Shown here: positions 1,017 through 49,967 of the stretch, piece by piece
Position numbering within the stretch: the first letter of the stretch is position 1
Layout of the letters: every line of letters begins with the position of its first letter
DNA from: Deltaproteobacteria bacterium
GTDB lineage: Bacteria; Myxococcota_A; Polyangia; Fen-1088
Direction: 5' to 3'
Assembly: GCA_033763315.1 (NCBI GenBank)
Contig: JANRKS010000001.1
Coordinates: 96,001 to 160,000, forward strand
DNA length: 64,000 nucleotides
Notes under the pieces: generated by a model
The model's input: only the letters and a program-made list of their open reading frames with translations
Told to the model about the DNA's origin: nothing
Databases searched by the model: none
Translations under genes and position numbers: made by a program

Positions 1017-1658
1017 TTAGAAGCGCGTGCTGTCACGGCCTTCGAGCGGCGGGGGCGGCAGGATCCGCGGCTTGCTGACCGGTTTCGGGGCAGGCTGCGC
1101 GGGCCGGTTGTTGTCGATCAGGCGTTGGATCTTCTGCTTCACGTCGCGATCCTTCTCGCGGCGGTTGTGCTTCTCCAGCATTTCGATGCCCTCGGGGTTC
1201 TTCGACAACGCCAACGCCACGGCGGCATCCAGGCGCACGGCGGCGCTGTCATGTTCAAGCCAGGGGCCCGCGTTGGCCAGGATCCGACCATCGTGCAACC
1301 ACCCCAGCCCCAACAACGCCCGCCGAACCATGGCCAGTTCCACCTCGTTCTGTGTCGGTTTCACAATGCGCACCAATTGATCGCGCGCCACAACGGAGCC
1401 TGAGGCGGCCAAAGCGTCGATGGCACGCCCCCGCAAGGCTGCGGAAGCCTGTGCATCGCGAACGATGTCGATGAGCACGAGGTCGGCGTCCTTACCCATG
1501 GCCTGCACGTCGGCAGGGGCGATCGGGCGGCCCTCCTTGGTCAACGCGGCCTCCACGCCAGCGCGGGTGGCCGGCGCCGTGGGGGCCTTTTTCGTCTGTG
1601 CCCAAGCCACGCTGCTGCCCAGAAGAACCACGCCAATTGCCGCCAAAATCAGTCTCAT
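1017..1658 (-). CDS. secreted HEAT-repeat protein
   Basis: Signal peptide (MRLILAAIGVVLLGSSVAWAQ); HEAT-like repeats LRGRAIDALAA, VRRALLGLGW, VRLDAAVALAL. Confidence 0.7.
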   Translation of the reverse strand: MRLILAAIGVVLLGSSVAWAQTKKAPTAPATRAGVEAALTKEGRPIAPADVQAMGKDADLVLIDIVRDAQASAALRGRAIDALAASGSVVARDQLVRIVKPTQNEVELAMVRRALLGLGWLHDGRILANAGPWLEHDSAAVRLDAAVALALSKNPEGIEMLEKHNRREKDRDVKQKIQRLIDNNRPAQPAPKPVSKPRILPPPPLEGRDSTRF

Positions 1659-1733
1659 GCTGGGGCGCAGTGTACCCCGCCGTCCCCTCAAGGGGCGCGT
1701 TCAGTTCAACGATTCCCGGCTCGCCTTCCGCCT

Positions 1734-1791
1734 GTGACTTTGCTGAAGTCATATATGACTCCCGTTCCAAGTCATATGACTCCCTATGACT
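1734..1791. promoter_or_regulatory. cluster of AGTCA/TGACT palindromes, candidate enhancer (UAS)
   Basis: Perfect palindromes AGTCATATATGACT (1747-1760) and AGTCATATGACT (1770-1781) plus extra TGACT half-sites, 105-140 bp upstream of a sigma54 promoter. Confidence 0.65.
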
Positions 1792-1885
1792 CGCGCTTCC
1801 TTCCGGGTAGTCACATGGCCGCTGTAGATGACGTAAGTCACTGAATACATTGGCGCTCGTCCGTTACGCCCGCGGTCGCCACATG

Positions 1886-1901
1886 TGGCACCCCCGTTGC
1901 A
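1886..1901 (+). promoter_or_regulatory. sigma54 (-24/-12) promoter
   Basis: TGGCAC-CCCCG-TTGCA, exact consensus and spacing; predicted +1 near 1912. Confidence 0.8.
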
Positions 1902-1911
1902 GCGCTTTAGG

Positions 1912-2049
1912 TCGCCTGGGCGAAACCCCCTTTTTGCCACGGCAACCAGGGCAGCGTCACGGGAACATTGATTGTGGATCCCAGGGCGCTGTCTTGGAGG
2001 CAAATGACCGGAAGCTGAATCCCCAACCAGCTTCCGGTTATTTCTTTTT
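1912..2049 (+). ncRNA. candidate ~135-nt sigma54-dependent structured sRNA (or attenuator leader)
   Basis: Promoter, then a long hairpin (1946-1958 pairs with 1985-1997 using three G-U pairs; 1933-1938 pairs with 1999-2004), then an intrinsic terminator; no plausible ORF. Confidence 0.6.
2005..2049 (+). terminator. Rho-independent terminator
   Basis: ACCGGAAGCTG / loop AATCCCCAAC / CAGCTTCCGGT followed by TATTTCTTTTT. Confidence 0.75.
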
Positions 2050-2121
2050 CGAACGGCTTGGCGCACACCCACAAGTTTCCGCGCTTATCTGCCGAGTTCC
2101 TGGTGCGGAGAACCGACAGGT

Positions 2122-4437
2122 ATGCGCACCACTTCTAAAGTTAGCCTGATCTTGGGGTTGTTCACTCTCGTGGCAAGCTGCGATGCCGGCGGGCCAGAAG
2201 AATCAGGACCAGGATTCGGCTTTGGCGACGCGGGTGACAGCGGGCGCATCGTCATTGACCCGGACGGCGGCGGTCGCGAGGCGGCGGCGACGGACGGCCC
2301 GAGCATGGTTGAGGGCATCGATGTGGAGGTGGCCGTCACCAAACCGGGCAAGGACGCCATCGTGACGTACACCGATAGCTTCAAGCCCGAGGTGGTGGTG
2401 GACGTTATGGCGGATACCGATGCGCTGCTGATGGGCTTTTCCATCACGGACGTGAAAGCTGAGATCTTGGTGCCGGACGATATGACGACGCCGGTGTCGA
2501 CGAAGCTAAGCCAGGTGAACCTTCAGCGGGGCCCTGAAGGCATGCGGAAGCTCACTTACACGTTCGGCAATACGTTGGTGGGCACGTCTGGCATTCCCAG
2601 CGGCAACCTTCAGCTCAAAATTACCGTCACCACCAACAACACGACGCACACGGCGATGCTTCCGTTTCGGTTCGATGGCGGGCCGACCATTAAGTTCATC
2701 GTTCCGTCCACACCCGACACGTCCTTCAAAGATTCGGCGCCCATCAAGTTCAGCGTCAGCGATTCCGTGTTTCCGCCCGTCAGTGACGTGAAGCTGTTTT
2801 TGGGCGATGCGGAGCAGGAGTTGCAAACGCCCGATGGTGTGTATGCCGCGACGATCGACTTTAAATCTTTTGTGCCACGGCTCAGTGGCCGGCAGCTGGT
2901 GACCGTACGTGCGAAAAACGGCAATGGCACTTCGTCGGTCGTGTCGCTTGCGTTCATCGCCGATGATCAGGGGCCTGTGTTCACGAAACTCACACCACAG
3001 AACGGGCAACTGATCGGCGGCATCATTGAGATCGTGGCGGAGCTCGACGATCCGGCAGGCGTGGATCCCGCTTCCGTGGTGGCCGTGATCGGCAATGGCG
3101 ATGACAAATTCGAGGTTCGGCTCACGCCTCCCGCGGTGGGCATGTCGCCGGCCAAGTTTACAAAGGCTTTCGACACGCGCTTGCTTCCCACCAACGCGAT
3201 CTATCCAAGCCTTTCGATGCGCGCGTCGGACAAACTCGGCAACGAAAGCACCATTGGTTACAACCTTTCGCTCGACAACATGCCGCCTCTGCTCGATCTC
3301 GATCCACCCGATGATTTTCGCTTCCTCACGCTTGAAAATGGCTTCTATAAATGTTCGTGGCCGCTTGATCCTGTGGGCCCCGATGCGGTGGACGATGGGC
3401 AATACGTCAACCAAGCCTTCGACGTGCGCGTGCGCGCTGAAGATCAAGGCAATGAGGTCAAAGCCGGCACGATCGATTTCGTGCCGTTGGCAGGTTTGAA
3501 GGCCGTGCAATTGGTGGCGCTTGACGACACCTCAAGAGCGCTGGTGGTGGATACAGACGGCGACAAAATTTGTGACGCCGTTAATCCACTGCTCGTGCCA
3601 ACGACAAGGCCGATGGCTTCCAATCAAATCTTGCTGCTGGACATGGATTCGCTGGCAAGGGCGGGTGTGCCAGATAAAAACCCAGAGCTCCCCGCACCCG
3701 GCTCTTGCACCACCAATGACGGCACGTACGCGGCAACGTCGGCTGTTTGCGATAACCCTGGCGTCACGTTCAACGCTTCCAAAGGCCGCTACGGCATTTA
3801 CCCGATACCAGGAAACCCGCCGCTGGTGACTCTGCACTCCGCTTATATGACAAACTTCACAACGTATGCGCAGGACAACTGGCCAGCGATCTGGACGTTG
3901 GGTCCCATTCGTCCGGGCCTAGAATGTGCGGGTCGGCAGCTTGAATCCGTGGGAACCAACCTCAGCGACGGGTGGGTGTGTTTGGCGGCCCTGGGCGAAG
4001 ACAACTTGGGCCGCAAGCAGGTCAGCCGCCCGATTCGCGTCTGCATCGACGCTGACGCCAGCGGCGGCGATTGTCCTCACATCAGCATTGTGGCGGTCTC
4101 ATCAGGCTCGCCAATGGCCGTGACCACCGCAAAGAACCACGGCTTCGTCACGGGCGATGAAGTGTTTGTGCAGGGGGTGGAATGTCAGACGGGCGCCAAC
4201 GGCAAACGCAAGATCACGGTGACGGGGCCAACCACGTTCACGCTTAACGGCGTGGCTGGCATAAGCGAGCTCGGTTGCACTGACAGCAAGGGCTTGGTCG
4301 TTGCCACGAAGCTCTTGCCCGATTGCACCGGCAAACAAACGGCGCCGATACCCAATCCGACAGTGGACAACACAGTCAAATGCGACCCATGGCGCACCTA
4401 CAAGTATCCAACTCCAGAGTTCCGCATCTACAAGTAG
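2122..4437 (+). CDS. large lipoprotein with tandem Ig-like domains, Cys-containing C-half and FCCH-like beta domain
   Basis: Lipobox LVASC; Ig-like strands (VTVRAKNGNG, MRASDKLGNES, VRAEDQGN); C-terminal SPMAVTTAKNHGFVTGDEVFVQGV motif. Confidence 0.75.
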   Translation: MRTTSKVSLILGLFTLVASCDAGGPEESGPGFGFGDAGDSGRIVIDPDGGGREAAATDGPSMVEGIDVEVAVTKPGKDAIVTYTDSFKPEVVVDVMADTDALLMGFSITDVKAEILVPDDMTTPVSTKLSQVNLQRGPEGMRKLTYTFGNTLVGTSGIPSGNLQLKITVTTNNTTHTAMLPFRFDGGPTIKFIVPSTPDTSFKDSAPIKFSVSDSVFPPVSDVKLFLGDAEQELQTPDGVYAATIDFKSFVPRLSGRQLVTVRAKNGNGTSSVVSLAFIADDQGPVFTKLTPQNGQLIGGIIEIVAELDDPAGVDPASVVAVIGNGDDKFEVRLTPPAVGMSPAKFTKAFDTRLLPTNAIYPSLSMRASDKLGNESTIGYNLSLDNMPPLLDLDPPDDFRFLTLENGFYKCSWPLDPVGPDAVDDGQYVNQAFDVRVRAEDQGNEVKAGTIDFVPLAGLKAVQLVALDDTSRALVVDTDGDKICDAVNPLLVPTTRPMASNQILLLDMDSLARAGVPDKNPELPAPGSCTTNDGTYAATSAVCDNPGVTFNASKGRYGIYPIPGNPPLVTLHSAYMTNFTTYAQDNWPAIWTLGPIRPGLECAGRQLESVGTNLSDGWVCLAALGEDNLGRKQVSRPIRVCIDADASGGDCPHISIVAVSSGSPMAVTTAKNHGFVTGDEVFVQGVECQTGANGKRKITVTGPTTFTLNGVAGISELGCTDSKGLVVATKLLPDCTGKQTAPIPNPTVDNTVKCDPWRTYKYPTPEFRIYK

Positions 4438-4488
4438 CCTTCTGTCGCCGTATTTGACCCTCGCTCTGACGCGAGCGAGGATCGCGCC

Positions 4489-6927
4489 GTGCAAGACAAT
4501 TCTTCGCAGGGCGCTGCAGCCGCATCCCTTGCTCAGCGCCTCGTCCGTTCGCCGTTGGCTTGGTTGTGCGTGCTGGTGGCGGCGGCCTACGCCCCTATCT
4601 TCTGGGGTCAGATCATTTTCTTCCGTGATCCCGCGCATTGGAACTTTCCAGCGCGAGCCTTCGTTCGTCATGCCTTTCTAAGCGGACAATTTCCGCACTG
4701 GAACCCGTACGTGGGCCTCGGCGTGCCCGTGTGGGCCAACCCGCTTTACGGGATGTTCTATCCACCCAATTGGCTGTTGCTCTTGGTGCCCGAGCGCCTC
4801 GTTGCATCGGCTTTGACGTGGCAAAGCGCCGCGCACACGCTGTGGGGTGGCGCCGGCATGTTCGTCCTGGCGAAGCAATTTCGCTGCGGATCTGTCGCGT
4901 GCCTCATCGGCGGCATCGCGTGGGCGTTCTCGGGCTACACAACTTCAATGTGGTCGGCCGGCCTGCTGCTCATCGCCGACGCTTGGCTGCCTTGGGTGGC
5001 GGTGGGTTTCATCGCTGCGGCCACAAGCTATCGGCGCGGCGAAGGTGCCGTGCACGCCATCCCCAAAGCCACGTTGCCGCTCGCCTTGGCACTTTTGTGC
5101 GGTGAAGTTTTTGTTGCGATGATCAGCGCGGGCTTTGGCGCCTTAACTTTGTGGGCGTGGGCCTTGGGTGGCCACGCGCGGGACATTGCAAATGAACAAC
5201 GGGCCTTGGCCGCAGGGCAACAAAAGCCGTGGCTACGTTTCGCTGCGGTGTTGGCCTCGGCCGTCACGCTTGCGTTTCTGATCGGCACGATCGTTATCGC
5301 GCCCGCGCGGGCCTTGGTTGTGGGTACCCCTCGTGCCGCCGGATTACCTTTGTCAGAGGCTGAACAATATTCGTTTCATCCCATTCGCTTGTTGGAATTG
5401 GCTGCGCCTGAAGCCTTGGGCGTGCCATTGATGGATTACCCCGCCGCCAAATATGCCGGCGAAAAGGCGATTGATGATGCGCCCCTGGCCTTCAGCAGCT
5501 ACTTGGGCGCGGCCGTGATCGGTCTCGCGTTGTTGGCGTTCGGCCGCAACCGACGCAGCGCTTGGATGCTGCTCGGATATTGGTGCTTCTTTTTGCTGAT
5601 CTGCTTTGGTCGCTACACGCCCATTCATGCGGTTTGGCGGCAGCTGGTTTTGCCATTTCAGTACATGCGGTATCCCGAAAAGTACTTCGTGCTTTTGGTC
5701 GGGTGGACAGCGCTGTTGGGATCAATGGGTTTTGACCGCCTGATCAAAGATAGGTCGCTTAAGCCCTGGCGCGTGCTGACGCTCATCGTTTCGTTGGTGG
5801 CTGTTCTTCTTCTCGTGGGAGTGTTTGCCGACTTCCAGCTTGCGCGCTACGTCCGCGGTGGGGCCGCACGCGGGCTGTTTGCCGCCGTTGGATTGCTTTG
5901 CATGTTTTGGTTTCGCAAACGCCAGTCCAGCTTGTTGCTGCCTTTGGCGGTTGCCGTTGTCACGTTGGACCTCGTGACGACCCTTTGGCATTTGCAGCCG
6001 TTCACTGATGCCTCGGTCGCACAGCGCATGCCGCCCGTGGCGAAGGCCATTTTGGATCGCACAGAAAACAAGGGTCTGCCTCCCCGGCTATACCGCAGCC
6101 GCAAAGCCACCGACAACGTTTCGAGTTTCCTAAAGCTCGATGGCTTCGCCGACACCGAGGCACTGTGGATGCTGACGTTGTCGCCGAACCTCGGTAGCGT
6201 GTTTGGCATCGCCACAGTTCCTGGATATGACGCCGCCACGTTTGGCACCTTGAACCGGTTTTGGGAAGAGGGCCTTGAGTTTCGTGCCACGCTCTTGCGC
6301 CTGTTGGCCGTTGAATACGCCTTGTTGCCCGTCAAGGATCCCGCGACGCTCGACAAGCGAGGCGCCGCCTATGAAGCCATCATGGACCCCGTGCCCGGCA
6401 CCCGTCTTTACCGCGTGAAGAACCCGCTTCCGCGCGCGTTTTTAACCGCAAACACGCTGGTGCTGAACGATGACGACGCTCTATTGCGGCTCTTCACACC
6501 GGAGGTGGCAGACGGAAAGATCGCTTTGGTGGCCGAAGGGCAAGGCGAAAAACCCATGTCGGGAAGCACCGAACCGCTGGGCGTGTGTACGAGCCGCGCG
6601 CAAGGCACGAACCGCCTGGTTGCCACGTGCACAACCGCGCGTGATGGCCTTGCCGTGTTTGCTGAGCAGTTTGCCCCGCAGTGGAAGGCCACCGTCGATG
6701 GAGCGCCCGCCAAGTTGCTGCGTGTGAACCAGGTTATGCGCGGCGTGCACATAACCGCTGGAAAGCACGAGGTGGTCATGACCTACGAGTTGCCGCAGGT
6801 CACCTCAGCAGCGTGGGTGTCGATGCTTGCAGCCATCGTATGCGTGCTGCTCATCGCCTTGAACCTGCGTTCGAAAAGAAGAAAGGGGCCTGTGATGGCC
6901 CCTCTCTCAGATGTCCACGTCAGCTGA
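4489..6927 (+). CDS. YfhO-family polytopic membrane protein (GT-C-type glycosyltransferase)
   Basis: FFRD...FPHWNPYVGLGVP..ANP..GMFYPPNW; RYPEKY; C-terminal EQFAPQWKATVDG...VNQVMRGV..GKHEV; many TM helices. Confidence 0.85.
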   Translation: MQDNSSQGAAAASLAQRLVRSPLAWLCVLVAAAYAPIFWGQIIFFRDPAHWNFPARAFVRHAFLSGQFPHWNPYVGLGVPVWANPLYGMFYPPNWLLLLVPERLVASALTWQSAAHTLWGGAGMFVLAKQFRCGSVACLIGGIAWAFSGYTTSMWSAGLLLIADAWLPWVAVGFIAAATSYRRGEGAVHAIPKATLPLALALLCGEVFVAMISAGFGALTLWAWALGGHARDIANEQRALAAGQQKPWLRFAAVLASAVTLAFLIGTIVIAPARALVVGTPRAAGLPLSEAEQYSFHPIRLLELAAPEALGVPLMDYPAAKYAGEKAIDDAPLAFSSYLGAAVIGLALLAFGRNRRSAWMLLGYWCFFLLICFGRYTPIHAVWRQLVLPFQYMRYPEKYFVLLVGWTALLGSMGFDRLIKDRSLKPWRVLTLIVSLVAVLLLVGVFADFQLARYVRGGAARGLFAAVGLLCMFWFRKRQSSLLLPLAVAVVTLDLVTTLWHLQPFTDASVAQRMPPVAKAILDRTENKGLPPRLYRSRKATDNVSSFLKLDGFADTEALWMLTLSPNLGSVFGIATVPGYDAATFGTLNRFWEEGLEFRATLLRLLAVEYALLPVKDPATLDKRGAAYEAIMDPVPGTRLYRVKNPLPRAFLTANTLVLNDDDALLRLFTPEVADGKIALVAEGQGEKPMSGSTEPLGVCTSRAQGTNRLVATCTTARDGLAVFAEQFAPQWKATVDGAPAKLLRVNQVMRGVHITAGKHEVVMTYELPQVTSAAWVSMLAAIVCVLLIALNLRSKRRKGPVMAPLSDVHVS
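6874..6903 (-). terminator. intrinsic terminator of the pilin gene, embedded in the yfhO 3' end
   Basis: Hairpin AGGGGCC/TGTGAT/GGCCCCT preceded on + by AAAAGAAGAA, which reads as a U-tract on the minus strand, ~25 nt after the pilin stop. Confidence 0.7.
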
Positions 6928-21006: not shown

Positions 21007-22530
21007 TTAGCTTTCGTCGTGCGTGTTTTCCAGCGGCGCTTCGGCCCCATCGTCACGCGTGGTTGTGGGCAGCAAATGCTCAAGACCGTGCTTGCGCATG
21101 CGGTAGTAAAGCGTGGACCGGTTGATACCTAAACTGCGCGCGGCGTGGGCAATGTTTCCCTGCATCTGTTCCACGGCCGCCACGATCTCGGCGCGCTCTT
21201 GTTCCGACAGCCGCTTATTGAGCGAACGGCTGGCCGAGCCTGACGTCAGCGTGGACACCGGCACGGGACCATGCGGGGCGGCGGGCGGCGTGGGCATGTT
21301 GGCCAAGCGGCGGCCGAAATCCAGGTCGTTTACGGTGACCTCTGCCCCCTGCGCCAAGATCAGCGCGCGTTCAATCACGTTCTCCAGTTCGCGTACGTTG
21401 CCGGGCCACGGGTAATGCGCCAGCATCGCCAGCGCGTCTGGGGCGATGCCTGACAGGCGTTTGCCGGTGGCGTTCGAAAACTTGTGGATGAAGTGCTCGC
21501 ACAGCACCGCCAAATCATCCAAGCGTTCGCGCAGCGGCGGCAACGTGATCGAGAAAACGTTGAGCCGGTAATACAGATCTTCGCGGAACTTCCCTTCCGA
21601 GATCATCTGTTCCAAATTGCGGTGCGTGGCTGAAATCACGCGCACATCCACGCGAACCGTTTCCACGCCGCCCACGCGTTCAAACTCGCGCTCTTGCAAC
21701 ACGCGCAGCAGCTTCACTTGCACTTCGGCGGGCAGATCGCCCACTTCATCCAAGAACAACGTGCCGCCATCAGCCAACTCAAAACGCCCCGCACGCCGGG
21801 CCATGGCGCCTGTAAACGCGCCCTTTTCGTGGCCAAAAAGTTCCGATTCTAAAATTCCTGGTGCCAAGGCCGCGCAGTTCACGCGCACGAATGGCCGTGA
21901 TTCACGCGTGCTGTTGATGTGAATCGCGCGCGCCACCATTTCTTTGCCGGTGCCTGTTTCGCCGCGCAGAAGCACAGTTGACGATGTGGGCGCCACCTGC
22001 TGCACCTTGCGCAACACATCTTTGAGCGGGTTCGATTCGCCCACGATTTCGCCGAAGTTAAACGCGCCGTGCGCTTCACGCGAAAGCAAACCCGCGTATT
22101 GGGTCAGCTGATCGGAAAGGCGTTGGTTCTCGCGCCGCAAGAAGAAGCGCTCCACCGCGTGCCGTAAGATGCCGCGCAATTCCTCGCGATCCCAGGGCTT
22201 GGTGACATAGCGATAGATGTGGCCCAAATTGATGGCTTCCACCAAAACGTCAACGTCGGTGAAGGCCGTCATAATGATGCCCACGGCGTCGGGGCGCACC
22301 GTGCGAATGGCGCGCAACAGTTCAAGCCCAGTCATGCGTGGCATACGTTGATCGGTGACAACCACGGCGACGTCTGTGGTCTTCGCGATCTCAAGCGCTT
22401 GGTCGCCGCCATCCGCGAGGTGCAGCGTGAACATGCGCGCGAAGTTGAAACGAAACGCGTCCAAGTTGTCGCGCTCGTCGTCCACCACCAGGATCGGAAA
22501 GCGGTTGTAGTCCCATGCCTCTGTCGCCAT
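21007..22530 (-). CDS. sigma54-dependent response regulator (REC-AAA-Fis HTH)
   Basis: ILVVDDE, TDQRMP, GETGTGKE, GAFTGA, FLDEVG, WPGNVREL, ARSLGINRSTLY. Confidence 0.95.
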   Translation of the reverse strand: MATEAWDYNRFPILVVDDERDNLDAFRFNFARMFTLHLADGGDQALEIAKTTDVAVVVTDQRMPRMTGLELLRAIRTVRPDAVGIIMTAFTDVDVLVEAINLGHIYRYVTKPWDREELRGILRHAVERFFLRRENQRLSDQLTQYAGLLSREAHGAFNFGEIVGESNPLKDVLRKVQQVAPTSSTVLLRGETGTGKEMVARAIHINSTRESRPFVRVNCAALAPGILESELFGHEKGAFTGAMARRAGRFELADGGTLFLDEVGDLPAEVQVKLLRVLQEREFERVGGVETVRVDVRVISATHRNLEQMISEGKFREDLYYRLNVFSITLPPLRERLDDLAVLCEHFIHKFSNATGKRLSGIAPDALAMLAHYPWPGNVRELENVIERALILAQGAEVTVNDLDFGRRLANMPTPPAAPHGPVPVSTLTSGSASRSLNKRLSEQERAEIVAAVEQMQGNIAHAARSLGINRSTLYYRMRKHGLEHLLPTTTRDDGAEAPLENTHDES

Positions 22531-45900: not shown

Positions 45901-46126
45901 TGCGCCGTGTGCCATCGGCTTGCAATGCGTGAACAATGTGTGCGCGCGTCTGTGCGAAGTTGGCAAATCAACGTGCCCCGCAAACGCGCCCGCGTGTCAG
46001 GTGGCGCCGGGCAATGCACGCTATGGCACCTGTGTTGCGGCCGCTGTGCCGCCGCCCGACGCCGGCGTGCCGGTGACGTTCGATGCCGGTGTGGTGGTCA
46101 CGGCCGACGGCGGCGCGCCCCTTTAA
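42932..46126 (+). CDS. large extracellular-type protein: Ig/PKD domains, Cys-rich repeats, TolB-like propeller
   Basis: DAEEGDIS..WTSSLD, DADQDPLT..W, FSPDG repeats, CVDGVCC, CDPILQMGC; no signal peptide. Confidence 0.75.
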   Translation: MIPERDGAMYIAAQADPQALLSESNAKDNLGLMPLLVEPVGRNRAPVLSVSATNEGAAVKRGRPVALGATAYDAEEGDISSRIVWTSSLDKYLGQGANVSLATLSRGKHRLRATVRDEGVVMAPAPYDNDRMPGKGRGFGLLWPLKQAPMWAADMEAPEQVVGEFEIEVVDDSLPVNSPPSVSAGPGLTTSVGVPGMPLATATDADQDPLTIKWQAFLDANEVALQDASTLSPKLIAGSAGVYRLILEVSDGKDVSKDEVAVTVVANNDAPTLQVSLPPMATVGVPVLAIVQANDVNGDPLTISYELKKPLQSKAVVQAEGLGMPSFIPDLPGVYTLGVLADDGRGGKGKGLAETTVVGVAMPDAGAVVDAGVPDVRVTPDAPLAMNVALGSSCRQSVECGSGFCVDGVCCASACVGLCQSCALPGMQGTCVAASVGQNPDNDCPAGSSCNELRQCGPFLVRPGSTLVAAGNVSLVGRGTWRVGGDPHEHSGATCDAASGLCLLAVSLPNMSTFARLVAVSINNPQATPITLAENVNPYDGSSGFQQGVVLGSDIQGVRFAWKPGWAAPQFISTGFVYECRVAPDGNSVACLMNQREDGTGFTFDVAVGPLSSGGNLPAVVGTVHADSIASSSVQMQFSPDGQRLFVLGARQAGAVPSIRWWSVTGGNENVIIEEVSLGAQMEISVDGKRIAFTRLAVASQTGPSIGTLAFAATTGAPNVTSLDQNVSGFGFITNGALAYIKAIDATALGEIRTFADVATGVSSPVVDKVLQDSVRLSRDGTRMALLRETNGNAISELWVGRTDGAGWSMVTEQPDILIENGDEAFSPQGSWLVWRTGISDSLTPQPLFTTRLPVSGTPLNNQVGLGVRQWDFTQADGLISVGDFVDYTITSGLLRIYDGSIIPGKVVQSHVGERFAIVNDKILFLITGDANANGAYVVDLAQPPPMSTCDPILQMGCSAGNRCTLAGAGDVAACTPAGTVPLGSACAPAAPCAIGLQCVNNVCARLCEVGKSTCPANAPACQVAPGNARYGTCVAAAVPPPDAGVPVTFDAGVVVTADGGAPL

Positions 46127-47589
46127 GTGTTGTCGCGGTATGTGTTTGGATCCAAGCCGTACCGCATGAGCGTTCGATGAACCACGGCCCATTGCCGATC
46201 TAAGGCGCGCGCCACACTGGAAACGCTGCCCTTGTGCTGCACCAAGAGCGACTGCAACTCGTCCTTGGTGGGCATGGGCCGCCGCAGCTTGCGGCCGGCT
46301 TCTCCGTTGTCGTCGCTGTCATCCAACGTTTGCGCCGGTGCTGGGGGAGCGGGCGATGGCACCGAGCGCACGTGGCCTGACATGGATTGTGGCAAATGCG
46401 CCAAGCCGATGCGGGCATCGTTGACCGCATAAAGCCGCGCCTCGCGAATCACCTTCTCAAGCTCGCGCACATTGCGCGGCCACGCATAAAGCCACAACGC
46501 CAAGAATGCCGCGGGTTCGATCTCCATCCCCGCGCCACCCGAGGATGCCAAAAGGTGTGCGACCAACGGCCCAAGATCTTCGGGGCGCTCGCGCAATGGT
46601 GGCAAGCGAATGGGCTCGCCGCCCAACCGTCCCAGCAAATCAGAACGCAACGCCGGGCCCATTTCCGCCACCACGGCGTCAAACATGGTTTGGCTTGTGG
46701 CTGCGACAAACCGTGTGTCGAGCCGCCGCGACGTGGTGGCGCCGAGCGGGGTGAACTGGCGTGTTTGAATGAACCGTAGGATCTTCGCCTGCGCGGCCGA
46801 CGGCATGTCACCGATCTCGTCCAACAATAAAGTGCCGCCGCTGGCTTCTTCGATGAGACCTTTTTTCGCTTGGCCCGCTTGTGAGTGTGCGCCGCGCACG
46901 TAGCCGAACAGTTCGCTTTCGAGGAGTTCGCCCGGGACCGCGGCGCAATTGATCGGAACGAACGGACCTTTGCGGCCACTGGCGGCGTGCAACGCGCGCG
47001 CATAAACCTCTTTGCCCACGCCCGTCTCGCCCACCAGCAACACTTCTTCGTGGCTGGGAGCCAAGCGCCGCAAGCGGCTTAACATGCGCACCATTCGCGG
47101 CGACGCCGAAGGCACGGGACCAAGTGGTGACTCGGCCTCTTCAGTCATTGCCGCCAAGTCGCTGGCATCCACCAACCGGAACACAGCGGCCTGACCGCCG
47201 AACATCAAGAACATGCCGTCGTTCAACCGCACCGGCCCCGTGATCAGGCGTCCGTTCACCAAGGTGCCGTTGGTGCTGCCCAGATCGGTGATGAACCAGT
47301 TATCGGCTTGAAAGGTGATGCGGGCGTGCCGCCCGGACGCCCGGCGGTGAGACACGGCCCAGGTGTGCAGGCCGCCTTCGCCGGTGGGGCGGCGGCCGAT
47401 CTCAAGGCCAGGGCGTGCCAACTCCAACCAGCGCACGGGGCCGGGAGCCCCCGCGTTGGCCGCGTCGCCCGCGTCAATCACAAGTGCATGGCGGCCCGTC
47501 AGAGGCTGCGACGATTCAGCCTCCGTGTGGAAGGTTGGCTCTTCGATTGGGAAAGGCGCCCGAGTGGACATGGAGAACATCAGCCCCAT
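46123..47589 (-). CDS. FHA-domain sigma54-type enhancer-binding protein
   Basis: FHA (IGR, SGRHA, DLGSTNGT); GETGVGKE; LLDEIG; WPRNVREL; HTH; L1 loop GAHSQA. Start may be 47580 or 47571. Confidence 0.9.
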   Translation of the reverse strand: MGLMFSMSTRAPFPIEEPTFHTEAESSQPLTGRHALVIDAGDAANAGAPGPVRWLELARPGLEIGRRPTGEGGLHTWAVSHRRASGRHARITFQADNWFITDLGSTNGTLVNGRLITGPVRLNDGMFLMFGGQAAVFRLVDASDLAAMTEEAESPLGPVPSASPRMVRMLSRLRRLAPSHEEVLLVGETGVGKEVYARALHAASGRKGPFVPINCAAVPGELLESELFGYVRGAHSQAGQAKKGLIEEASGGTLLLDEIGDMPSAAQAKILRFIQTRQFTPLGATTSRRLDTRFVAATSQTMFDAVVAEMGPALRSDLLGRLGGEPIRLPPLRERPEDLGPLVAHLLASSGGAGMEIEPAAFLALWLYAWPRNVRELEKVIREARLYAVNDARIGLAHLPQSMSGHVRSVPSPAPPAPAQTLDDSDDNGEAGRKLRRPMPTKDELQSLLVQHKGSVSSVARALDRQWAVVHRTLMRYGLDPNTYRDNT

Positions 47590-47596
47590 CAGGGGA

Positions 47597-47618
47597 AGTC
47601 ATATGTGACTCATATGAC
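47597..47618. promoter_or_regulatory. AGTCA/TGACT palindrome cluster, candidate UAS/operator
   Basis: AGTCATATGTGACT overlapping GTCATATG-N5-CATATGAC; same motif as 1747-1781. Confidence 0.6.
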
Positions 47619-47713
47619 ACCCAGTTGACAATGCCCGGCGTTGCGAAAGCCCAGCAAAGTTACAAACGCGCGATTTCATTGGCGCGAGCGACTTTGACAG
47701 CGCCGGCCACGTT

Positions 47714-47749: not shown

Positions 47750-47941
47750 ATGAAAACTTACTTCGCAGTGATTCCCGATGGGCAAACGCAACCGGCGGCC
47801 GTCTTCGCGCAACTGGAAGACGCCATTGATTGGGGCGTGGGCACCATTGGTCAAAACAGGTTTAGCATCCGGGGCGTGCAGGGCGTGGCAAGTGATTGGG
47901 CCGAAGGGGTGGTGCCCGCAGCAGGGTTGCCGGCGAATTAA
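47750..47941 (+). CDS. 63-aa small protein
   Basis: GAGG SD; protein-like pattern YFAVI..PAAVFAQLEDAIDWG..FSIR; fills the gap between activator and kinase. Confidence 0.65.
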   Translation: MKTYFAVIPDGQTQPAAVFAQLEDAIDWGVGTIGQNRFSIRGVQGVASDWAEGVVPAAGLPAN

Positions 47942-47947
47942 CAGAGG

Positions 47948-49801
47948 TTAGGGAGATGCGTCCGGGGGTGCTGCATCGGTGGAGGCGGGGCCAGGGATGG
48001 ATGAGACGGTGCGGCGGCCCCCGGCGGGCAGTTTGGCGCGTGCACGCGCAAGCCAGCCGGGGTTTCGCGCTTGTTGGGCCTGCAGCATCTGCTGCCACAC
48101 CACGCCGGCGGTGGCGGGCCGCAGGTCGGCCTCGTCGGCCAAGCACGCGCGGCAGATCGCGGTGATCTCTTGCACGGCCACGTTGCGTGAACTTGTTTCC
48201 ACCACGTAGTGGCCGGGCTTGCCGGCCACGCGTTGGTACACGGGCCGTTCGCCGTGCAAGATCTCGAACACAACCAGACCCAACTGCCACACGTCTGAGG
48301 CGAAGGTGGGCTTGTGGCCCATCACAACTTCAGGCGCCATGTAACCGGGCGTGCCTCCCACGAACGTCATCGTTTCGTCGGGATCCATGGCCAAGCCAAA
48401 GTCGGCCACGGCCAAGCGGCCGTCGCCCATGCGTAAGATGTTGCGAGGCGTGACGTCACGGTGAACGATGCCCGCGGCGTGAATCGCTGTGAGGCCCGCG
48501 ATTACGGCGCGCGCGTCTTGCACGCGATCTTCTTCGGAACGCTGGCTGTCGGCCTGCAATTGGCCGCGCAAGGTGCCGCCCGTGGCCAGCTGCATGGTCA
48601 AGAACGTGCCGCCTTCGGTGTGGCGGAAATCTAGAACCTGGCACACGTTCGGGTGCAGGATCTGGCGCGCGAGACGGAACTCGCGCCCAAGCCGCGTGAT
48701 CCACTGCCGCTCAAGCGCCAGCTCGGGCCGCAACAGTTTGACGGCCACCGTTTGCCCTGTGTCGCGATCGAGCGCACGAAACACATACGCCATGCCACCA
48801 CGGGCGAGCATAGAATCGATCACATATCGCTCTGCCAACACGGCGCCAGCGGTGGGAAGGCCACCGGCTTGCGCCTCAAAGTTTCGCTCTTGCACCTCCG
48901 TGGTGCCCTTCGAGGTGGGTTGCGGCGAATCGACAGCGGCGCTTTTTACCAAAGAGGGGCGTGAAAAGCTGAGCTCTTCGCTGGTGTGTTCTAAGAAGCG
49001 GGCTTCGGCCGCCTTGGCGACTTGATCCAGTTCAGCCAAATAACGATCCTGAACGTCGCGCGCTTGCCGCCACCGCCCAAAGGCCTGCCAACCGAACACA
49101 GCCAGCGCTCCAAACAAAGCGCCTGCCACGCGATACCAGATGCCGTTGGTTGTGAACGCAGCTACCGTGGCACCCACAGCCGCGCCCGCGGGCAGGGGCC
49201 ACCATGACAGCGTTTCCACCCAATGAATGTGGTAAAGGCAACGCTCGCCACCGCGTTGTTGGCACTCGGTTTCGTTGATGATCGCAGGCGGCAGCCGCCA
49301 CAGCGTGGGGATCGCCGAAAGGTACGCGCGGCGCAGGTGGCACAAATAAGGCGAAGCCTCGCGCACGCGATCGTTGGGCTGTTTCCACTCAAGCACGCCG
49401 AACCCACGTCGCACTTCATGCACTGTGATTTTGCTGACTTTGCTCAGCAGCGCCGCCACACGCGGTGTATAGGCGTACGTGGTGCGCGGCGACCCAAACG
49501 CCCGCAACAGCGGCACCAAGAAGCCCAGCGCCTTTTCCGACACCGCGGCCTGGGTGGTGCGCTCTTCCACCAGGGCCAAGCCCACGCGTTCCACCACCCA
49601 ACCGGTGAGGGATTCACAAAACCGCTGCGAAACCCAGTTGGATTGGTTGCGCAGATACTCGAGATCGATTTGCCATTCGTCTAAGAAGCGGCTGAAGTCG
49701 GCGCGATCGCACTCTTCCATAGCGATGTTCAGCAGAGTGTCGATGTAACGACAGCTCAACTCAAACGCGACCGCAGGAGATGTGAGGGACCGGCCAGACA
49801 T
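47948..49801 (-). CDS. membrane Ser/Thr kinase with N-terminal V4R/HNOB-like sensor region
   Basis: ARGGMAYV, VAVK, HRDVTPRN, DFG, GTPGYMAPE, SDVW; two TM helices; N-terminal NWVS...C..R...ETECQQRGGERCLYHI. Confidence 0.85.
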   Translation of the reverse strand: MSGRSLTSPAVAFELSCRYIDTLLNIAMEECDRADFSRFLDEWQIDLEYLRNQSNWVSQRFCESLTGWVVERVGLALVEERTTQAAVSEKALGFLVPLLRAFGSPRTTYAYTPRVAALLSKVSKITVHEVRRGFGVLEWKQPNDRVREASPYLCHLRRAYLSAIPTLWRLPPAIINETECQQRGGERCLYHIHWVETLSWWPLPAGAAVGATVAAFTTNGIWYRVAGALFGALAVFGWQAFGRWRQARDVQDRYLAELDQVAKAAEARFLEHTSEELSFSRPSLVKSAAVDSPQPTSKGTTEVQERNFEAQAGGLPTAGAVLAERYVIDSMLARGGMAYVFRALDRDTGQTVAVKLLRPELALERQWITRLGREFRLARQILHPNVCQVLDFRHTEGGTFLTMQLATGGTLRGQLQADSQRSEEDRVQDARAVIAGLTAIHAAGIVHRDVTPRNILRMGDGRLAVADFGLAMDPDETMTFVGGTPGYMAPEVVMGHKPTFASDVWQLGLVVFEILHGERPVYQRVAGKPGHYVVETSSRNVAVQEITAICRACLADEADLRPATAGVVWQQMLQAQQARNPGWLARARAKLPAGGRRTVSSIPGPASTDAAPPDASP

Positions 49802-49967
49802 GAAAAAATCGCGACCCCTTTCTCCCTCGGCGATGCGTACAAGGCAAGCTCTTGCCTGCAACGATTACACTTGATGCATTGTTGCCAACGCTACCTCCGT
49901 CGCGTTGCGGCGCGCGTGATTCGGAAACCTGCGTGGGCATGTGCATAATCGCCAAGTGTCCAACACC

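What the first reader, a model, noticed from the sequence alone, without database searches (positions are those of the whole stretch)
1886..2049. Unannotated sigma54-dependent structured small RNA (~135 nt)
Seen: a perfect sigma54 promoter (TGGCAC-N5-TTGCA, 1886-1901) is followed by a short GGG-CGAAA-CCC hairpin and a ~70-nt irregular rod. The rod's 13-bp core has three G-U pairs that form only on the + strand. A strong terminator then ends ~70 nt before the lipoprotein ATG, and its loop exposes AAUCCCCAAC. Known: myxobacterial Pxr is a sigma54-driven three-stem-loop sRNA, and C-rich loops often pair with Shine-Dalgarno sequences. Inferred: a Pxr-like trans-acting sRNA, although I cannot show sequence homology. 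The alternative is an attenuator for 2122-4437, since TTGCC (1934-1938) has two possible partners (1941-1945 or 1999-2003).
Basis: partly seen in the sequence, partly recalled or inferred. Interest (0 to 1): 0.8.

Follow-up and report, generated by a model that had tools for sequence, protein, structure and literature searches.

The report
Sigma-54-driven small RNA gene in Polyangia
An uncultured myxobacterium-like (Polyangia) genome carries a compact gene for a roughly 135-nucleotide non-coding RNA with a sigma-54 promoter, activator sites and a terminator; its targets are unknown and no transcript has been observed.

Summary
TGGCAC-N5-TTGCA lies at 1886-1901. It is followed by a strand-specific three-hairpin fold (dG -71.6, z -7.4 on +, -2.2 on -) ending in an 11-bp terminator plus U-tract at 2049, 72 nt before the lipoprotein ATG.

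The same unit occurs in the two other species of the genus held, and a ~93% identical relative lies in a metagenome contig. It comprises a -24/-12 promoter with a free-varying spacer, an SL1 loop CCCCC(U), a long rod capped by AUUGUGG, a GGAGGCA linker and a 3' hairpin. Stems co-vary (7 of 30 pairs) and loops are fixed. It matches no Rfam family. I found it in no other of 86 family genomes or 150 class genomes.

In one species the next gene is convergent, and the lipoprotein ortholog sits elsewhere without the RNA. A stand-alone sRNA is therefore favoured over an attenuator.

The upstream AGTCATATGACT-type palindromes form the densest such cluster in the genome. They recur in front of an FHA-domain sigma-54 activator gene at 46123-47571, conserved in all three species, which is the likely activator.

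It is not Pxr by synteny or taxon. There are no expression data and no targets. It is a new member of a known kind, of moderate interest.

The parts
1733..1841 (.). Candidate upstream activator sequence (UAS). Sites: TGTGACT 1733-1739; AGTCATATATGACT 1747-1760; AGTCATATGACT 1770-1781; TATGACTC 1785-1792; TAGTCACATG 1808-1817; AAGTCAC 1835-1841.
   Evidence: Repeats are listed. This is the densest TGACT/AGTCA cluster in the whole genome: 8 sites in 130 nt, and no other locus reaches 7. The 12-mer occurs 3 times genome-wide against 0.15 expected. The same palindrome type lies in front of an EBP gene.
1886..1901 (+). Sigma-54 promoter, TGGCAC-N5-TTGCA (-24 GG at 1887-1888, -12 GC at 1899-1900).
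   Evidence: G001 has TGGCAC-GAGAG-GTGCA and G002 has TGGCGC-GCGAC-GTGCA at the same relative place. It is unchanged in the ~93% relative X1, while 1883, 1884, 1903, 1904 and 1906 vary. rpoN is present.
1912..2049 (+). Predicted sRNA transcript of about 135-138 nt. The start is inferred from the usual -12 to +1 spacing, not measured.
   Evidence: Fold z -7.37 on + against -2.19 on -. No Rfam family matched at E<=10. It is single-copy in its own genome.
1919..1938 (+). SL1: a 7-bp hairpin with loop CCCCCU. AACCCCCUU is invariant in the three species.
   Evidence: The X1 variant keeps the fold (-13.8 against -13.3 kcal/mol for 1912-1947).
1946..1997 (+). SL2: a long irregular rod. Its apical region carries the invariant AUUGUGG (1972-1978).
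   Evidence: 6 of the 21 pairs of this helix show compensatory changes. X1 changes 1982 C>U (G-C to G-U) and 1983 A>G (which creates a C-G pair).
1996..2002 (+). Invariant GGAGGCA linker. Its first GG closes the rod.
2008..2049 (+). Intrinsic terminator: an 11-bp stem, loop AAUCCCCAAC, and U-tract 2040-2049.
   Evidence: -22.2 kcal/mol, z -6.9. G001 has an 11-bp stem plus U8 with every stem position different. G002 has a weaker hairpin with UGUUAUUGG.
2074..2097 (+). Conserved box AGTTT...TCTGCCGA between the terminator and the lipoprotein ATG. It is probably the lipoprotein gene's own cis-regulatory element.
   Evidence: Present upstream of all three lipoprotein orthologs, including G002, where no RNA lies upstream.
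1017..1658 (-). Divergent HEAT-repeat secreted protein gene. PFK lies at 1-1002. PFK-HEAT-RNA synteny is kept in all three species.
2122..4437 (+). Downstream lipoprotein gene of 771 aa. It is a neighbour in G000 and G001 only.
46123..47571 (-). Candidate cognate activator: an FHA-domain sigma-54 enhancer-binding protein. An alternative start is at 47589.
   Evidence: Pfam hits FHA 1.5e-15 and Sigma54_activat 3e-50. Orthologs of 75-78% identity occur in G001 and G002.
47597..47620 (.). Operator AGTCATATGTGACTCATATGAC, directly upstream of the EBP gene.
   Evidence: The conserved form GTCAYATGRGTCASATATGAYT lies upstream of the EBP orthologs in G001 and G002.
47948..49861 (-). Ser/Thr protein kinase gene next to the FHA-EBP gene. 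It is a possible input to the FHA domain.
   Evidence: Pfam Pkinase 2.1e-39. The reading frame just upstream of the G002 EBP gene appears to be the C-terminus of the same kinase. That is my reading of the printed sequence, not a run comparison.

Best explanation
This is a self-contained gene for a trans-acting small RNA of about 135 nt.

Activation. An enhancer-binding protein binds the TGACT/AGTCA palindromes at 1733-1841. It activates sigma-54 RNA polymerase at 1886-1901. The most likely activator is the FHA-domain EBP encoded at 46123-47571. That protein may itself be switched by the adjacent Ser/Thr kinase.

Transcript. Transcription starts near 1912 and stops at the intrinsic terminator (3' end about 2045-2049). 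The RNA folds into SL1, a long rod (SL2) and the terminator hairpin.

Action. Three sequence-invariant exposed elements are the candidate contact surfaces: the SL1 loop AACCCCCUU, the SL2 apical AUUGUGG and the linker GGAGGCA. The most likely mode is base-pairing of the C-rich SL1 loop with G-rich ribosome-binding regions of mRNAs encoded elsewhere.

Shown: the sequence anatomy, its conservation with co-varying stems in one genus, uncoupling from the downstream gene, and the shared palindrome with the EBP gene.

Inferred: transcription, sigma-54 and EBP dependence, the 5' and 3' ends, and the trans-acting, base-pairing mode. Targets are unknown.
For: 1. Conserved unit. G001 (L005) and G002 (L066/L101) both carry a GG-N10-GC promoter whose 5-nt spacer differs completely (CCCCG, GAGAG, GCGAC). 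Both also carry SL1, the rod, GGAGGCA and a 3' hairpin.
2. Folding. The plus strands fold at z -7.4, -3.5 and -3.2. The minus strands fold at -2.2, -2.3 and -2.7.
3. Covariation on 3 sequences. 86.4% of cells are paired and 7 of 30 pairs changed on both sides. 0 of 500 shuffles reach this, and slid controls give 0-3. Loops are invariant while stems vary.
4. The metagenome relative X1 keeps 1886-1901 intact and makes structure-compatible changes.
5. Independence from the lipoprotein gene.
- In G002 the order is PFK, HEAT, RNA, then a convergent pilin-like gene.
- The G002 lipoprotein ortholog (L006) has no sigma-54 site or RNA upstream.
- All three lipoprotein genes keep their own conserved box downstream of the terminator position.
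- Of 30 lipoprotein-homolog loci, only the window's own and G001 have the promoter upstream.
6. Machinery. rpoN is present and there are about 51 strong EBP matches.
7. UAS and EBP link.
- The palindrome cluster is the densest in the genome.
- The 12-mer occurs 3 times against 0.15 expected, Poisson P 5e-4.
- The other copies sit in front of the FHA-EBP gene, at C39 165-180 nt upstream of CGGCAC-N5-TTGCA, and at C19.
- The operator is conserved in front of the EBP orthologs.
8. Non-coding. Alignment gaps of 10, 2, 1, 7 and 5 nt do not fit a coding frame. The SD-plus-AUG mini-ORF in the window is absent from G001 and G002.
Against: - No transcript evidence exists. No RNA run was listed, so expression, the ends and rpoN dependence are untested.
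- There are only three species plus one close relative, all in one genus. Covariation statistics are therefore weak, and the tested structure was derived from the same alignment.
- In G000 and G001 the RNA is co-oriented with and directly upstream of the lipoprotein operon. Read-through regulation cannot be excluded there.
- The G002 terminator is poor (UGUUAUUGG) and its -24 element is TGGCGC.
- X1's 1935 U>G puts a mismatch into SL1. X1's 1951 G>C is uncompensated as far as the truncated table shows.
- The UAS in G002 resembles the EBP operator only at the half-site level. No binding has been shown. The EBP gene lies 45 kb away here, and about 285 kb away in G001.
- The exact promoter consensus is not enriched genome-wide.
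Confidence: 0.6

Rival explanations
1. It is a cis-acting leader or attenuator. The sigma-54 promoter is the promoter of the lipoprotein/YfhO-like operon (2122-6927). The structured RNA with its terminator then controls read-through, through a ligand, a protein or translation-independent attenuation. A dual role (a released sRNA plus conditional read-through) belongs here too.
For: - In G000 and G001 the element is co-oriented and lies 72 nt and about 180 nt upstream of the lipoprotein ATG.
- No sigma-70-like promoter was found in 1400-2600.
- The window has a possible alternative pairing: TTGCC 1934-1938 with GGCAA at 1941-1945 or 1999-2003.
Against: - G002 keeps the promoter and RNA next to PFK-HEAT, but the next gene is convergent. 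Its lipoprotein ortholog lies on another contig without the element.
- 28 of the 30 lipoprotein-homolog loci show no sigma-54 site upstream. One of these, L028, has a loose match about 1.3 kb upstream that I did not follow.
- The alternative pairing is not conserved in G001 or G002.
- A conserved box specific to the lipoprotein gene lies downstream of the terminator in all three species.
- No riboswitch or leader family matched in Rfam.
- The terminators in G000 and G001 are very strong.
Confidence: 0.17
2. It is a protein-binding (sequestering or scaffold) RNA rather than a base-pairing RNA. The invariant loops (CCCCCU, AUUGUGG) and GGAGGCA would be recognition sites for an RNA-binding protein, as in CsrB/RsmY-type or CrcZ-type decoys.
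For: The conserved elements are short and are presented in loops or linkers on a rigid rod. No convincing complementarity to neighbouring or regulon mRNAs was found in a crude test.
Against: There is only one GGA-containing motif, whereas known decoys carry many repeats (recalled knowledge). No candidate partner protein is linked to the locus. The duplex test was too crude to argue against base-pairing.
Confidence: 0.1
3. It is not a functional RNA. The conserved intergenic DNA would be regulatory DNA for the divergent HEAT/PFK genes, the sigma-54 match would be fortuitous, and the hairpins would be incidental.
For: The exact consensus is about as frequent as chance in this genome. Conservation is limited to one genus.
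Against: - Stems vary with compensation while loops are fixed. That is an RNA-level pattern, not a DNA-site pattern.
- The fold is strand-specific with G-U pairs.
- The GG and GC dinucleotides are kept while the spacer varies freely.
- The terminator stem is fully replaced but retained in G001.
Confidence: 0.06

Closest known systems
Pxr sRNA of Myxococcus xanthus and other Cystobacterineae
   Same: It is a myxobacterial, intergenic sRNA of about 108 nt. It has a predicted upstream sigma-54 promoter and enhancer site and a predicted triple stem-loop fold (passages of PMC5568312; abstract of PMC5684412 in the listing).
   Different: All pxr homologs lie between the EBP gene nla19 and an NADH dehydrogenase gene, and pxr arose within Cystobacterineae. 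This RNA lies between a HEAT-repeat gene and a lipoprotein gene in a Polyangia genome. Its nearest EBP gene is about 20 kb away. No sequence comparison was possible, because no Pxr sequence was available through the tools.
Qrr sRNAs of Vibrio (LuxO plus sigma-54)
   Same: Short sRNAs transcribed from sigma-54 promoters under one dedicated EBP, ending in an intrinsic terminator and acting by base-pairing. The LuxO/sigma-54 dependence is stated in the abstract of bioRxiv 10.1101/2021.07.01.450815 (listing). The rest is recalled.
   Different: No Rfam match to Qrr or any other family at E<=10. The architecture differs (a long rod). The EBP here has an FHA input domain rather than a receiver domain. 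A crude test for pairing with the EBP mRNA, a Qrr-luxO-type feedback, gave no signal.
GlmY/GlmZ (GlrR/QseF plus sigma-54) and CrcZ/NrsZ (CbrB/NtrC plus sigma-54) of Gammaproteobacteria
   Same: These are EBP- and sigma-54-dependent sRNAs with several stem-loops (recalled knowledge, not checked in a paper here).
   Different: No Rfam hit. The phylum is different, there are no repeated CA-rich or GGA motifs, and the neighbouring genes are unrelated.
Sigma-54-driven sRNA between dnaK and groES noted earlier in this scan (e1-2169251)
   Same: It has the same gene plan (activator site, sigma-54 promoter, structured RNA of about 132 nt, terminator). It occurs in uncultured Myxococcota-like lineages and is also absent from Rfam 15.
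   Different: The locus is different. A look-up by sequence found no look-alike among earlier findings, so nothing suggests the two RNAs are homologous. I did not see its sequence.

Membership tests
Pxr sRNA | Predicted sigma-54 promoter with an enhancer site upstream | tested here: met
   TGGCAC-N5-TTGCA at 1886-1901 is conserved as GG-N10-GC in 3 species. Palindrome cluster at 1733-1841.
Pxr sRNA | Three stem-loops including a terminator | tested here: met
   MFE and centroid structures.
Pxr sRNA | Location between nla19 (an EBP gene) and an NADH dehydrogenase gene | tested here: not met
   The flanks are HEAT/PFK and a lipoprotein. The nearest EBP matches lie about 20 kb and about 41 kb away. 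The synteny rule comes from PMC5568312.
Pxr sRNA | Taxonomic range: Cystobacterineae | tested here: not met
   The same-genus record L101 is titled as a Polyangia MAG. The range comes from PMC11928866 passages.
Pxr sRNA | Sequence similarity to the conserved Pxr SL1 and SL2 | not testable with these tools
   No Pxr sequence could be fetched through the tools. The Rfam scan gave no relevant hit, but I did not verify that Rfam holds a Pxr model.
Sigma-54/EBP-dependent trans-acting sRNA (functional class) | Conserved -24 GG / -12 GC promoter, with rpoN in the genome | tested here: met
Sigma-54/EBP-dependent trans-acting sRNA (functional class) | Upstream activator sites and a cognate EBP | tested here: inconclusive
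   The same palindrome type lies at the sRNA UAS, at a second sigma-54 promoter (C39) and at the FHA-EBP gene in 3 species. Binding was not tested, and the G002 UAS is only half-site-like.
Sigma-54/EBP-dependent trans-acting sRNA (functional class) | Own terminator; not tied to a downstream gene | tested here: met
   Strong terminators in G000 and G001. A convergent neighbour in G002. The G002 terminator is weak.
Sigma-54/EBP-dependent trans-acting sRNA (functional class) | A discrete transcript and a demonstrated target | not testable with these tools
   No RNA run was listed. A crude duplex test gave no signal.
Known Rfam sRNA and riboswitch families | Covariance-model match | tested here: not met
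   cmscan of 1600-2200 at E<=10 gave only 3 chance hits (a miRNA model, DnaX on the - strand, a lncRNA model), all far below their gathering scores.
Transcription attenuator / riboswitch leader | Always upstream of and co-oriented with the regulated gene | tested here: not met
   G002: a convergent gene follows, and the lipoprotein ortholog elsewhere lacks the element.
Transcription attenuator / riboswitch leader | Conserved mutually exclusive terminator and antiterminator pairings | tested here: not met
   The TTGCC/GGCAA alternatives exist only in the window sequence.

The most novel reading that the evidence does not exclude
The RNA is the output of a Ser/Thr-kinase to FHA-domain EBP to sigma-54 cascade. 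One phospho-threonine-sensing activator would drive a small regulon. The regulon would comprise this sRNA, an ECF-sigma operon (C39), a secreted FG-GAP/Cys-rich protein pair (C19) and the activator's own gene. The sRNA would be the post-transcriptional arm of the circuit. That would make it a lineage-specific sigma-54 sRNA in Myxococcota outside the Pxr clade with an identifiable cognate activator. Together with the earlier dnaK-groES case, it would suggest that sigma-54-driven sRNAs are a recurrent regulatory device of this EBP-rich phylum.
Probability: 0.3. Interest if true: 0.55.

Novelty: new member of a known kind. Interest (0 to 1): 0.38.

Why it matters
Myxococcota carry dozens of sigma-54 activators (about 51 strong matches here). 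To my knowledge, Pxr is the best-studied sRNA with a predicted sigma-54 promoter in the phylum, and its targets remained unknown until recently (abstract of PMC11928866).

A second, unrelated sRNA gene in the uncultured Polyangia would help in two ways. It has a complete cis-architecture and a candidate activator that can be named from sequence alone. It therefore offers a compact, testable circuit: promoter fusions, binding assays with the EBP DNA-binding domain, and target prediction across three genomes. It would also add a new family to RNA databases.

Its reach is limited. It occurs in one genus of uncultured bacteria, and there are no expression data and no targets.

Tried and rejected
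- blastn of 1880-2060 against 61 relatives. Only G000 plus two chance matches of 23-25 nt.
- 20-nt SL1 consensus with up to 3 mismatches in 89 family genomes. 76 of 89 genomes hit, but the reversed-pattern control hit about as often. This is noise.
- CM R1 on 89 family genomes. 6 genomes reached E<=1. Only G000, G001 and G002:C232 are real. The hits in G006, G083 and G099 and the second G002 hit lack both promoter and motifs.
- HEAT-gene synteny. My tblastn re-found the gene in 20 of the 30 loci fetched. Only the 3 genus members have the promoter plus all three motifs. A sigma-54-like match in L090 without RNA motifs was not followed.
- Three-motif pattern in genome contigs. 1 locus, which is the G002 sequence.
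- Three-motif pattern in metagenome contigs. 5 loci. Three are the same repeat array that looks like a CRISPR array, one is AT-rich and one (L106) scores only 12 bits. All are chance.
- CM R2 on 151 class genomes. Only G000 and one 29-bit hit in G139, which lacks promoter and motifs.
- Sequencing runs. No RNA holder was listed.
- Laid contigs. These are DNA only. The table of differences is cut after 1983, so the 3' arm of SL2 in X1 could not be read.
- Duplex energies of each species' sRNA against the 5' regions of its own EBP, HEAT and lipoprotein genes (one search timed out). z ran from -1.3 to +1.6, so no signal. The method is crude (full-length duplexes, mononucleotide shuffles).
- Small ORF after GGAGGCA (AUG at 2004, 4 codons). 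Not conserved.
- Long ORFs over the region (1850-2149 +, 1749-2072 -). Rejected because the alignment gaps are not multiples of three.
Not conserved.
- Literature searches listed no paper describing an sRNA of Polyangia or Sorangium among the titles and abstracts shown. I did not open those papers. Supplements were not consulted.

Full report
THE OBSERVATION

The intergenic region 1659-2121 lies between a divergent HEAT-repeat gene (1017-1658, - strand; PFK further left) and a 771-aa lipoprotein gene (2122-4437, +). TGGCACCCCCGTTGCA sits at 1886-1901.

From about 1912 the + strand folds into three hairpins at -71.6 kcal/mol. The z-score is -7.37, and none of 200 dinucleotide shuffles fold as well. 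The complementary strand reaches only z -2.19. This fits the three G-U pairs in the 13-bp helix 1946-1958/1985-1997.

The terminator is an 11-bp stem (2008-2018/2029-2039) with loop AAUCCCCAAC and a U-tract to 2049. It folds at -22.2 kcal/mol, z -6.9. It ends 72 nt before the ATG.

- The 5' hairpin is best drawn as GGCGAAA/UUUUGCC with loop CCCCCU.
- The promoter consensus by itself is not statistically special. There are 11 exact copies in 7.63 Mb against about 7 expected.

The consensus terminator scanner found nothing because it allows loops of only 3-8 nt. Rfam 15 gave no meaningful hit at E<=10.

IS IT CONSERVED?

Plain blastn found nothing in 60 relatives. Synteny did.

G001 (same genus). 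The HEAT-lipoprotein spacer holds TGGCAC-GAGAG-GTGCA. It also holds an SL1 with the same AACCCCCUU, a rod capped by GAUUGUGG, GGAGGCA, and an 11-bp terminator with U8. Every position of that terminator stem differs from the window's.

G002 (same genus). A covariance model built from the first two sequences (R1) found a third copy. It has TGGCGC-GCGAC-GTGCA, SL1 (CGGAA/UUCUG, loop CCCCC), a 20-odd-bp rod capped by AAUUGUGG, GGAGGCA, and a weaker 3' hairpin.

Across the three species:
- The -24 GG and -12 GC are fixed while the spacer is entirely different.
- Loops and the linker are invariant while stems vary.
- On the three-sequence alignment, 86.4% of cells pair and 7 of 30 pairs changed on both sides. 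0 of 500 shuffles reach this, and slid controls give 0-3.

Two caveats apply. There are only three sequences, and the structure was derived from the same alignment.

Plus-strand z-scores for G001 and G002 are -3.5 and -3.2. Their minus-strand values are -2.3 and -2.7.

A metagenome contig (X1, about 93% identical over 1732-2865) leaves 1886-1901 untouched, although 1883, 1884, 1903, 1904 and 1906 differ. Within the RNA:
- 1982 C>U turns a G-C pair into G-U.
- 1983 A>G creates a C-G pair.
- 1935 U>G adds a mismatch in SL1, but the local fold is retained (-13.8 against -13.3 kcal/mol).
- 1951 G>C is uncompensated as far as the table, which is cut after 1983, shows.

Beyond the genus I found nothing real:
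- R1 over 89 family genomes.
- R2 over 151 class genomes. The single 29-bit hit lacks promoter and motifs.
- HEAT-gene neighbourhoods.
- A three-motif pattern over the genome collection. It returned only the G002 sequence, whose record is titled a Polyangia MAG.
- The same pattern over the metagenome collection. All five hits are chance.

sRNA OR LEADER?

The decisive comparison is G002. There the order is PFK(-), HEAT(-), promoter plus RNA(+), and then a convergent pilin-like gene whose stop abuts the RNA's 3' hairpin. The G002 lipoprotein ortholog lies on another contig, behind a different pilin-like gene, with no sigma-54 site or RNA upstream.

All three lipoprotein genes share a box (AGTTT...TCTGCCGA; window 2074-2097). 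In G000 and G001 it lies downstream of the terminator. The break in G002 therefore falls exactly between two modules.

Of 30 lipoprotein-homolog loci in the family and class, only the window's own and G001 carry the promoter.

I therefore favour a stand-alone sRNA gene (0.6). A leader or dual role in G000 and G001 stays possible (0.17).

WHO ACTIVATES IT?

The genome has one rpoN and about 51 strong EBP matches.

The 110 bp upstream of the promoter hold AGTCATATATGACT, AGTCATATGACT and further TGACT/AGTCA half-sites. The ATATGACTCCC repeats are spaced 21 and 10 bp apart. This is the densest such cluster in the whole genome. AGTCATATGACT occurs three times against 0.15 expected, and the 14-mer variants three times against 0.03.

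The other copies are informative:
- Window 47597-47620, directly upstream of an FHA-plus-sigma-54-activator gene (46123-47571; Pfam).
- C39:4127, which lies 165-180 nt upstream of CGGCAC-N5-TTGCA. That promoter precedes a 138-aa protein, a 252-aa protein and an ECF sigma factor gene.
- A triple site at C19:511735-511790, upstream of a Cys-rich protein gene and an FG-GAP/PPC protein gene.

The EBP has clear orthologs in G001 and G002 (75% and 78% identity). Both carry the operator GTCAYATGRGTCASATATGAYT in front of the gene.

The sRNA UAS of G001 has AGTCCTATGACT and TGACTCGTATGACT. That of G002 has only TGTGACT...AGTCACA-type half-sites.

A Ser/Thr kinase gene (47948-49861) lies beside the EBP gene. 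The inference is a chain from kinase to FHA-EBP to sigma-54 to sRNA. I put the EBP assignment at roughly 0.45. No binding has been shown.

HOW IT MAY ACT

The invariant exposed elements are the SL1 loop AACCCCCUU, the apical AUUGUGG and the linker (G)GAGGCA. A C-rich loop pairing with G-rich ribosome-binding sites is the most economical mechanism, but it is an inference only.

A crude duplex test of each species' RNA against its own EBP, HEAT and lipoprotein 5' regions gave no signal. No RNA-seq run holding the locus was listed. A protein-binding role remains open (0.1).

COMPARISON WITH KNOWN SYSTEMS

Pxr shares the plan: a predicted sigma-54 promoter and enhancer site, a triple stem-loop and 108 nt. 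It is defined by its nla19 - pxr - NADH dehydrogenase location and its Cystobacterineae range (passages of PMC5568312, and PMC11928866). Both features fail here, and sequence similarity could not be tested. The RNA works like Pxr, Qrr or GlmY in gene design but is not a member of any described family.

A sequence look-up found no link to the present RNA. I did not test that note.

VERDICT

This is a real, conserved, strand-specific structured element with a complete sigma-54 gene architecture. It is most likely a genus-restricted trans-acting sRNA under an FHA-type activator. It is a new family of a known kind. Interest is moderate (0.38), because everything downstream of the sequence (transcript, dependence, targets) is still untested and the host is uncultured.

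Noticed in passing
window 47750-47941 (+); L116 792-1208 (= G000:C39:4391-4807): A 63-aa ORF with no Pfam hit lies divergent from the FHA-EBP gene and is conserved at the same place in G001. A weakly similar stretch (36% over 36 aa, E 1e-5) opens the 138-aa protein behind the C39 sigma-54 promoter. This may be a small-protein family tied to the same regulon.
   Followed up: partly
L116 (G000:C39:3600-7000): The palindrome AGTCATATGACTTGTGTGACT is followed 165-180 nt later by CGGCAC-N5-TTGCA. An operon then ends in an ECF sigma factor gene (Sigma70_r2 and r4). This is a likely second target of the same activator.
   Followed up: partly
L117 (G000:C19:510800-514500): Three palindromes (AGTCATATGTGACT, AAGTCACATACGACT, GAGTCATATGACT) lie upstream of a 207-aa Cys-rich protein gene and a 634-aa FG-GAP/PPC protein gene. 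Only a weak -24/-12 candidate (TGGGTT-N5-GTGCA) was seen by eye.
   Followed up: partly
window 2074-2097; L005 and L006 equivalents: The box AGTTT-N9/10-TCTGCCGA is conserved upstream of all three lipoprotein orthologs. It resembles neither a sigma-70 nor a sigma-54 promoter. It could be an ECF-type promoter or a regulator site.
   Followed up: no
L066 1630-2436 (-) and L006 about 900-1 (-): In G002 both break-point neighbours are pilin-like genes with a prepilin-type N-terminus (GF(S/T)LVEL). One is convergent with the sRNA and the other is divergent from the lipoprotein gene. This suggests that a pilin-flanked block was inserted between the two modules.
   Followed up: no
window 21547-22047 (-): A second sigma-54 activator gene match (252 bits) lies in the window, about 20 kb from the RNA. 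No palindrome of the AGTCATATGACT type was found next to it.
   Followed up: no
window 4489-6927 (+): An 812-aa YfhO-like membrane protein gene directly follows the lipoprotein gene and probably forms an operon with it.
   Followed up: no
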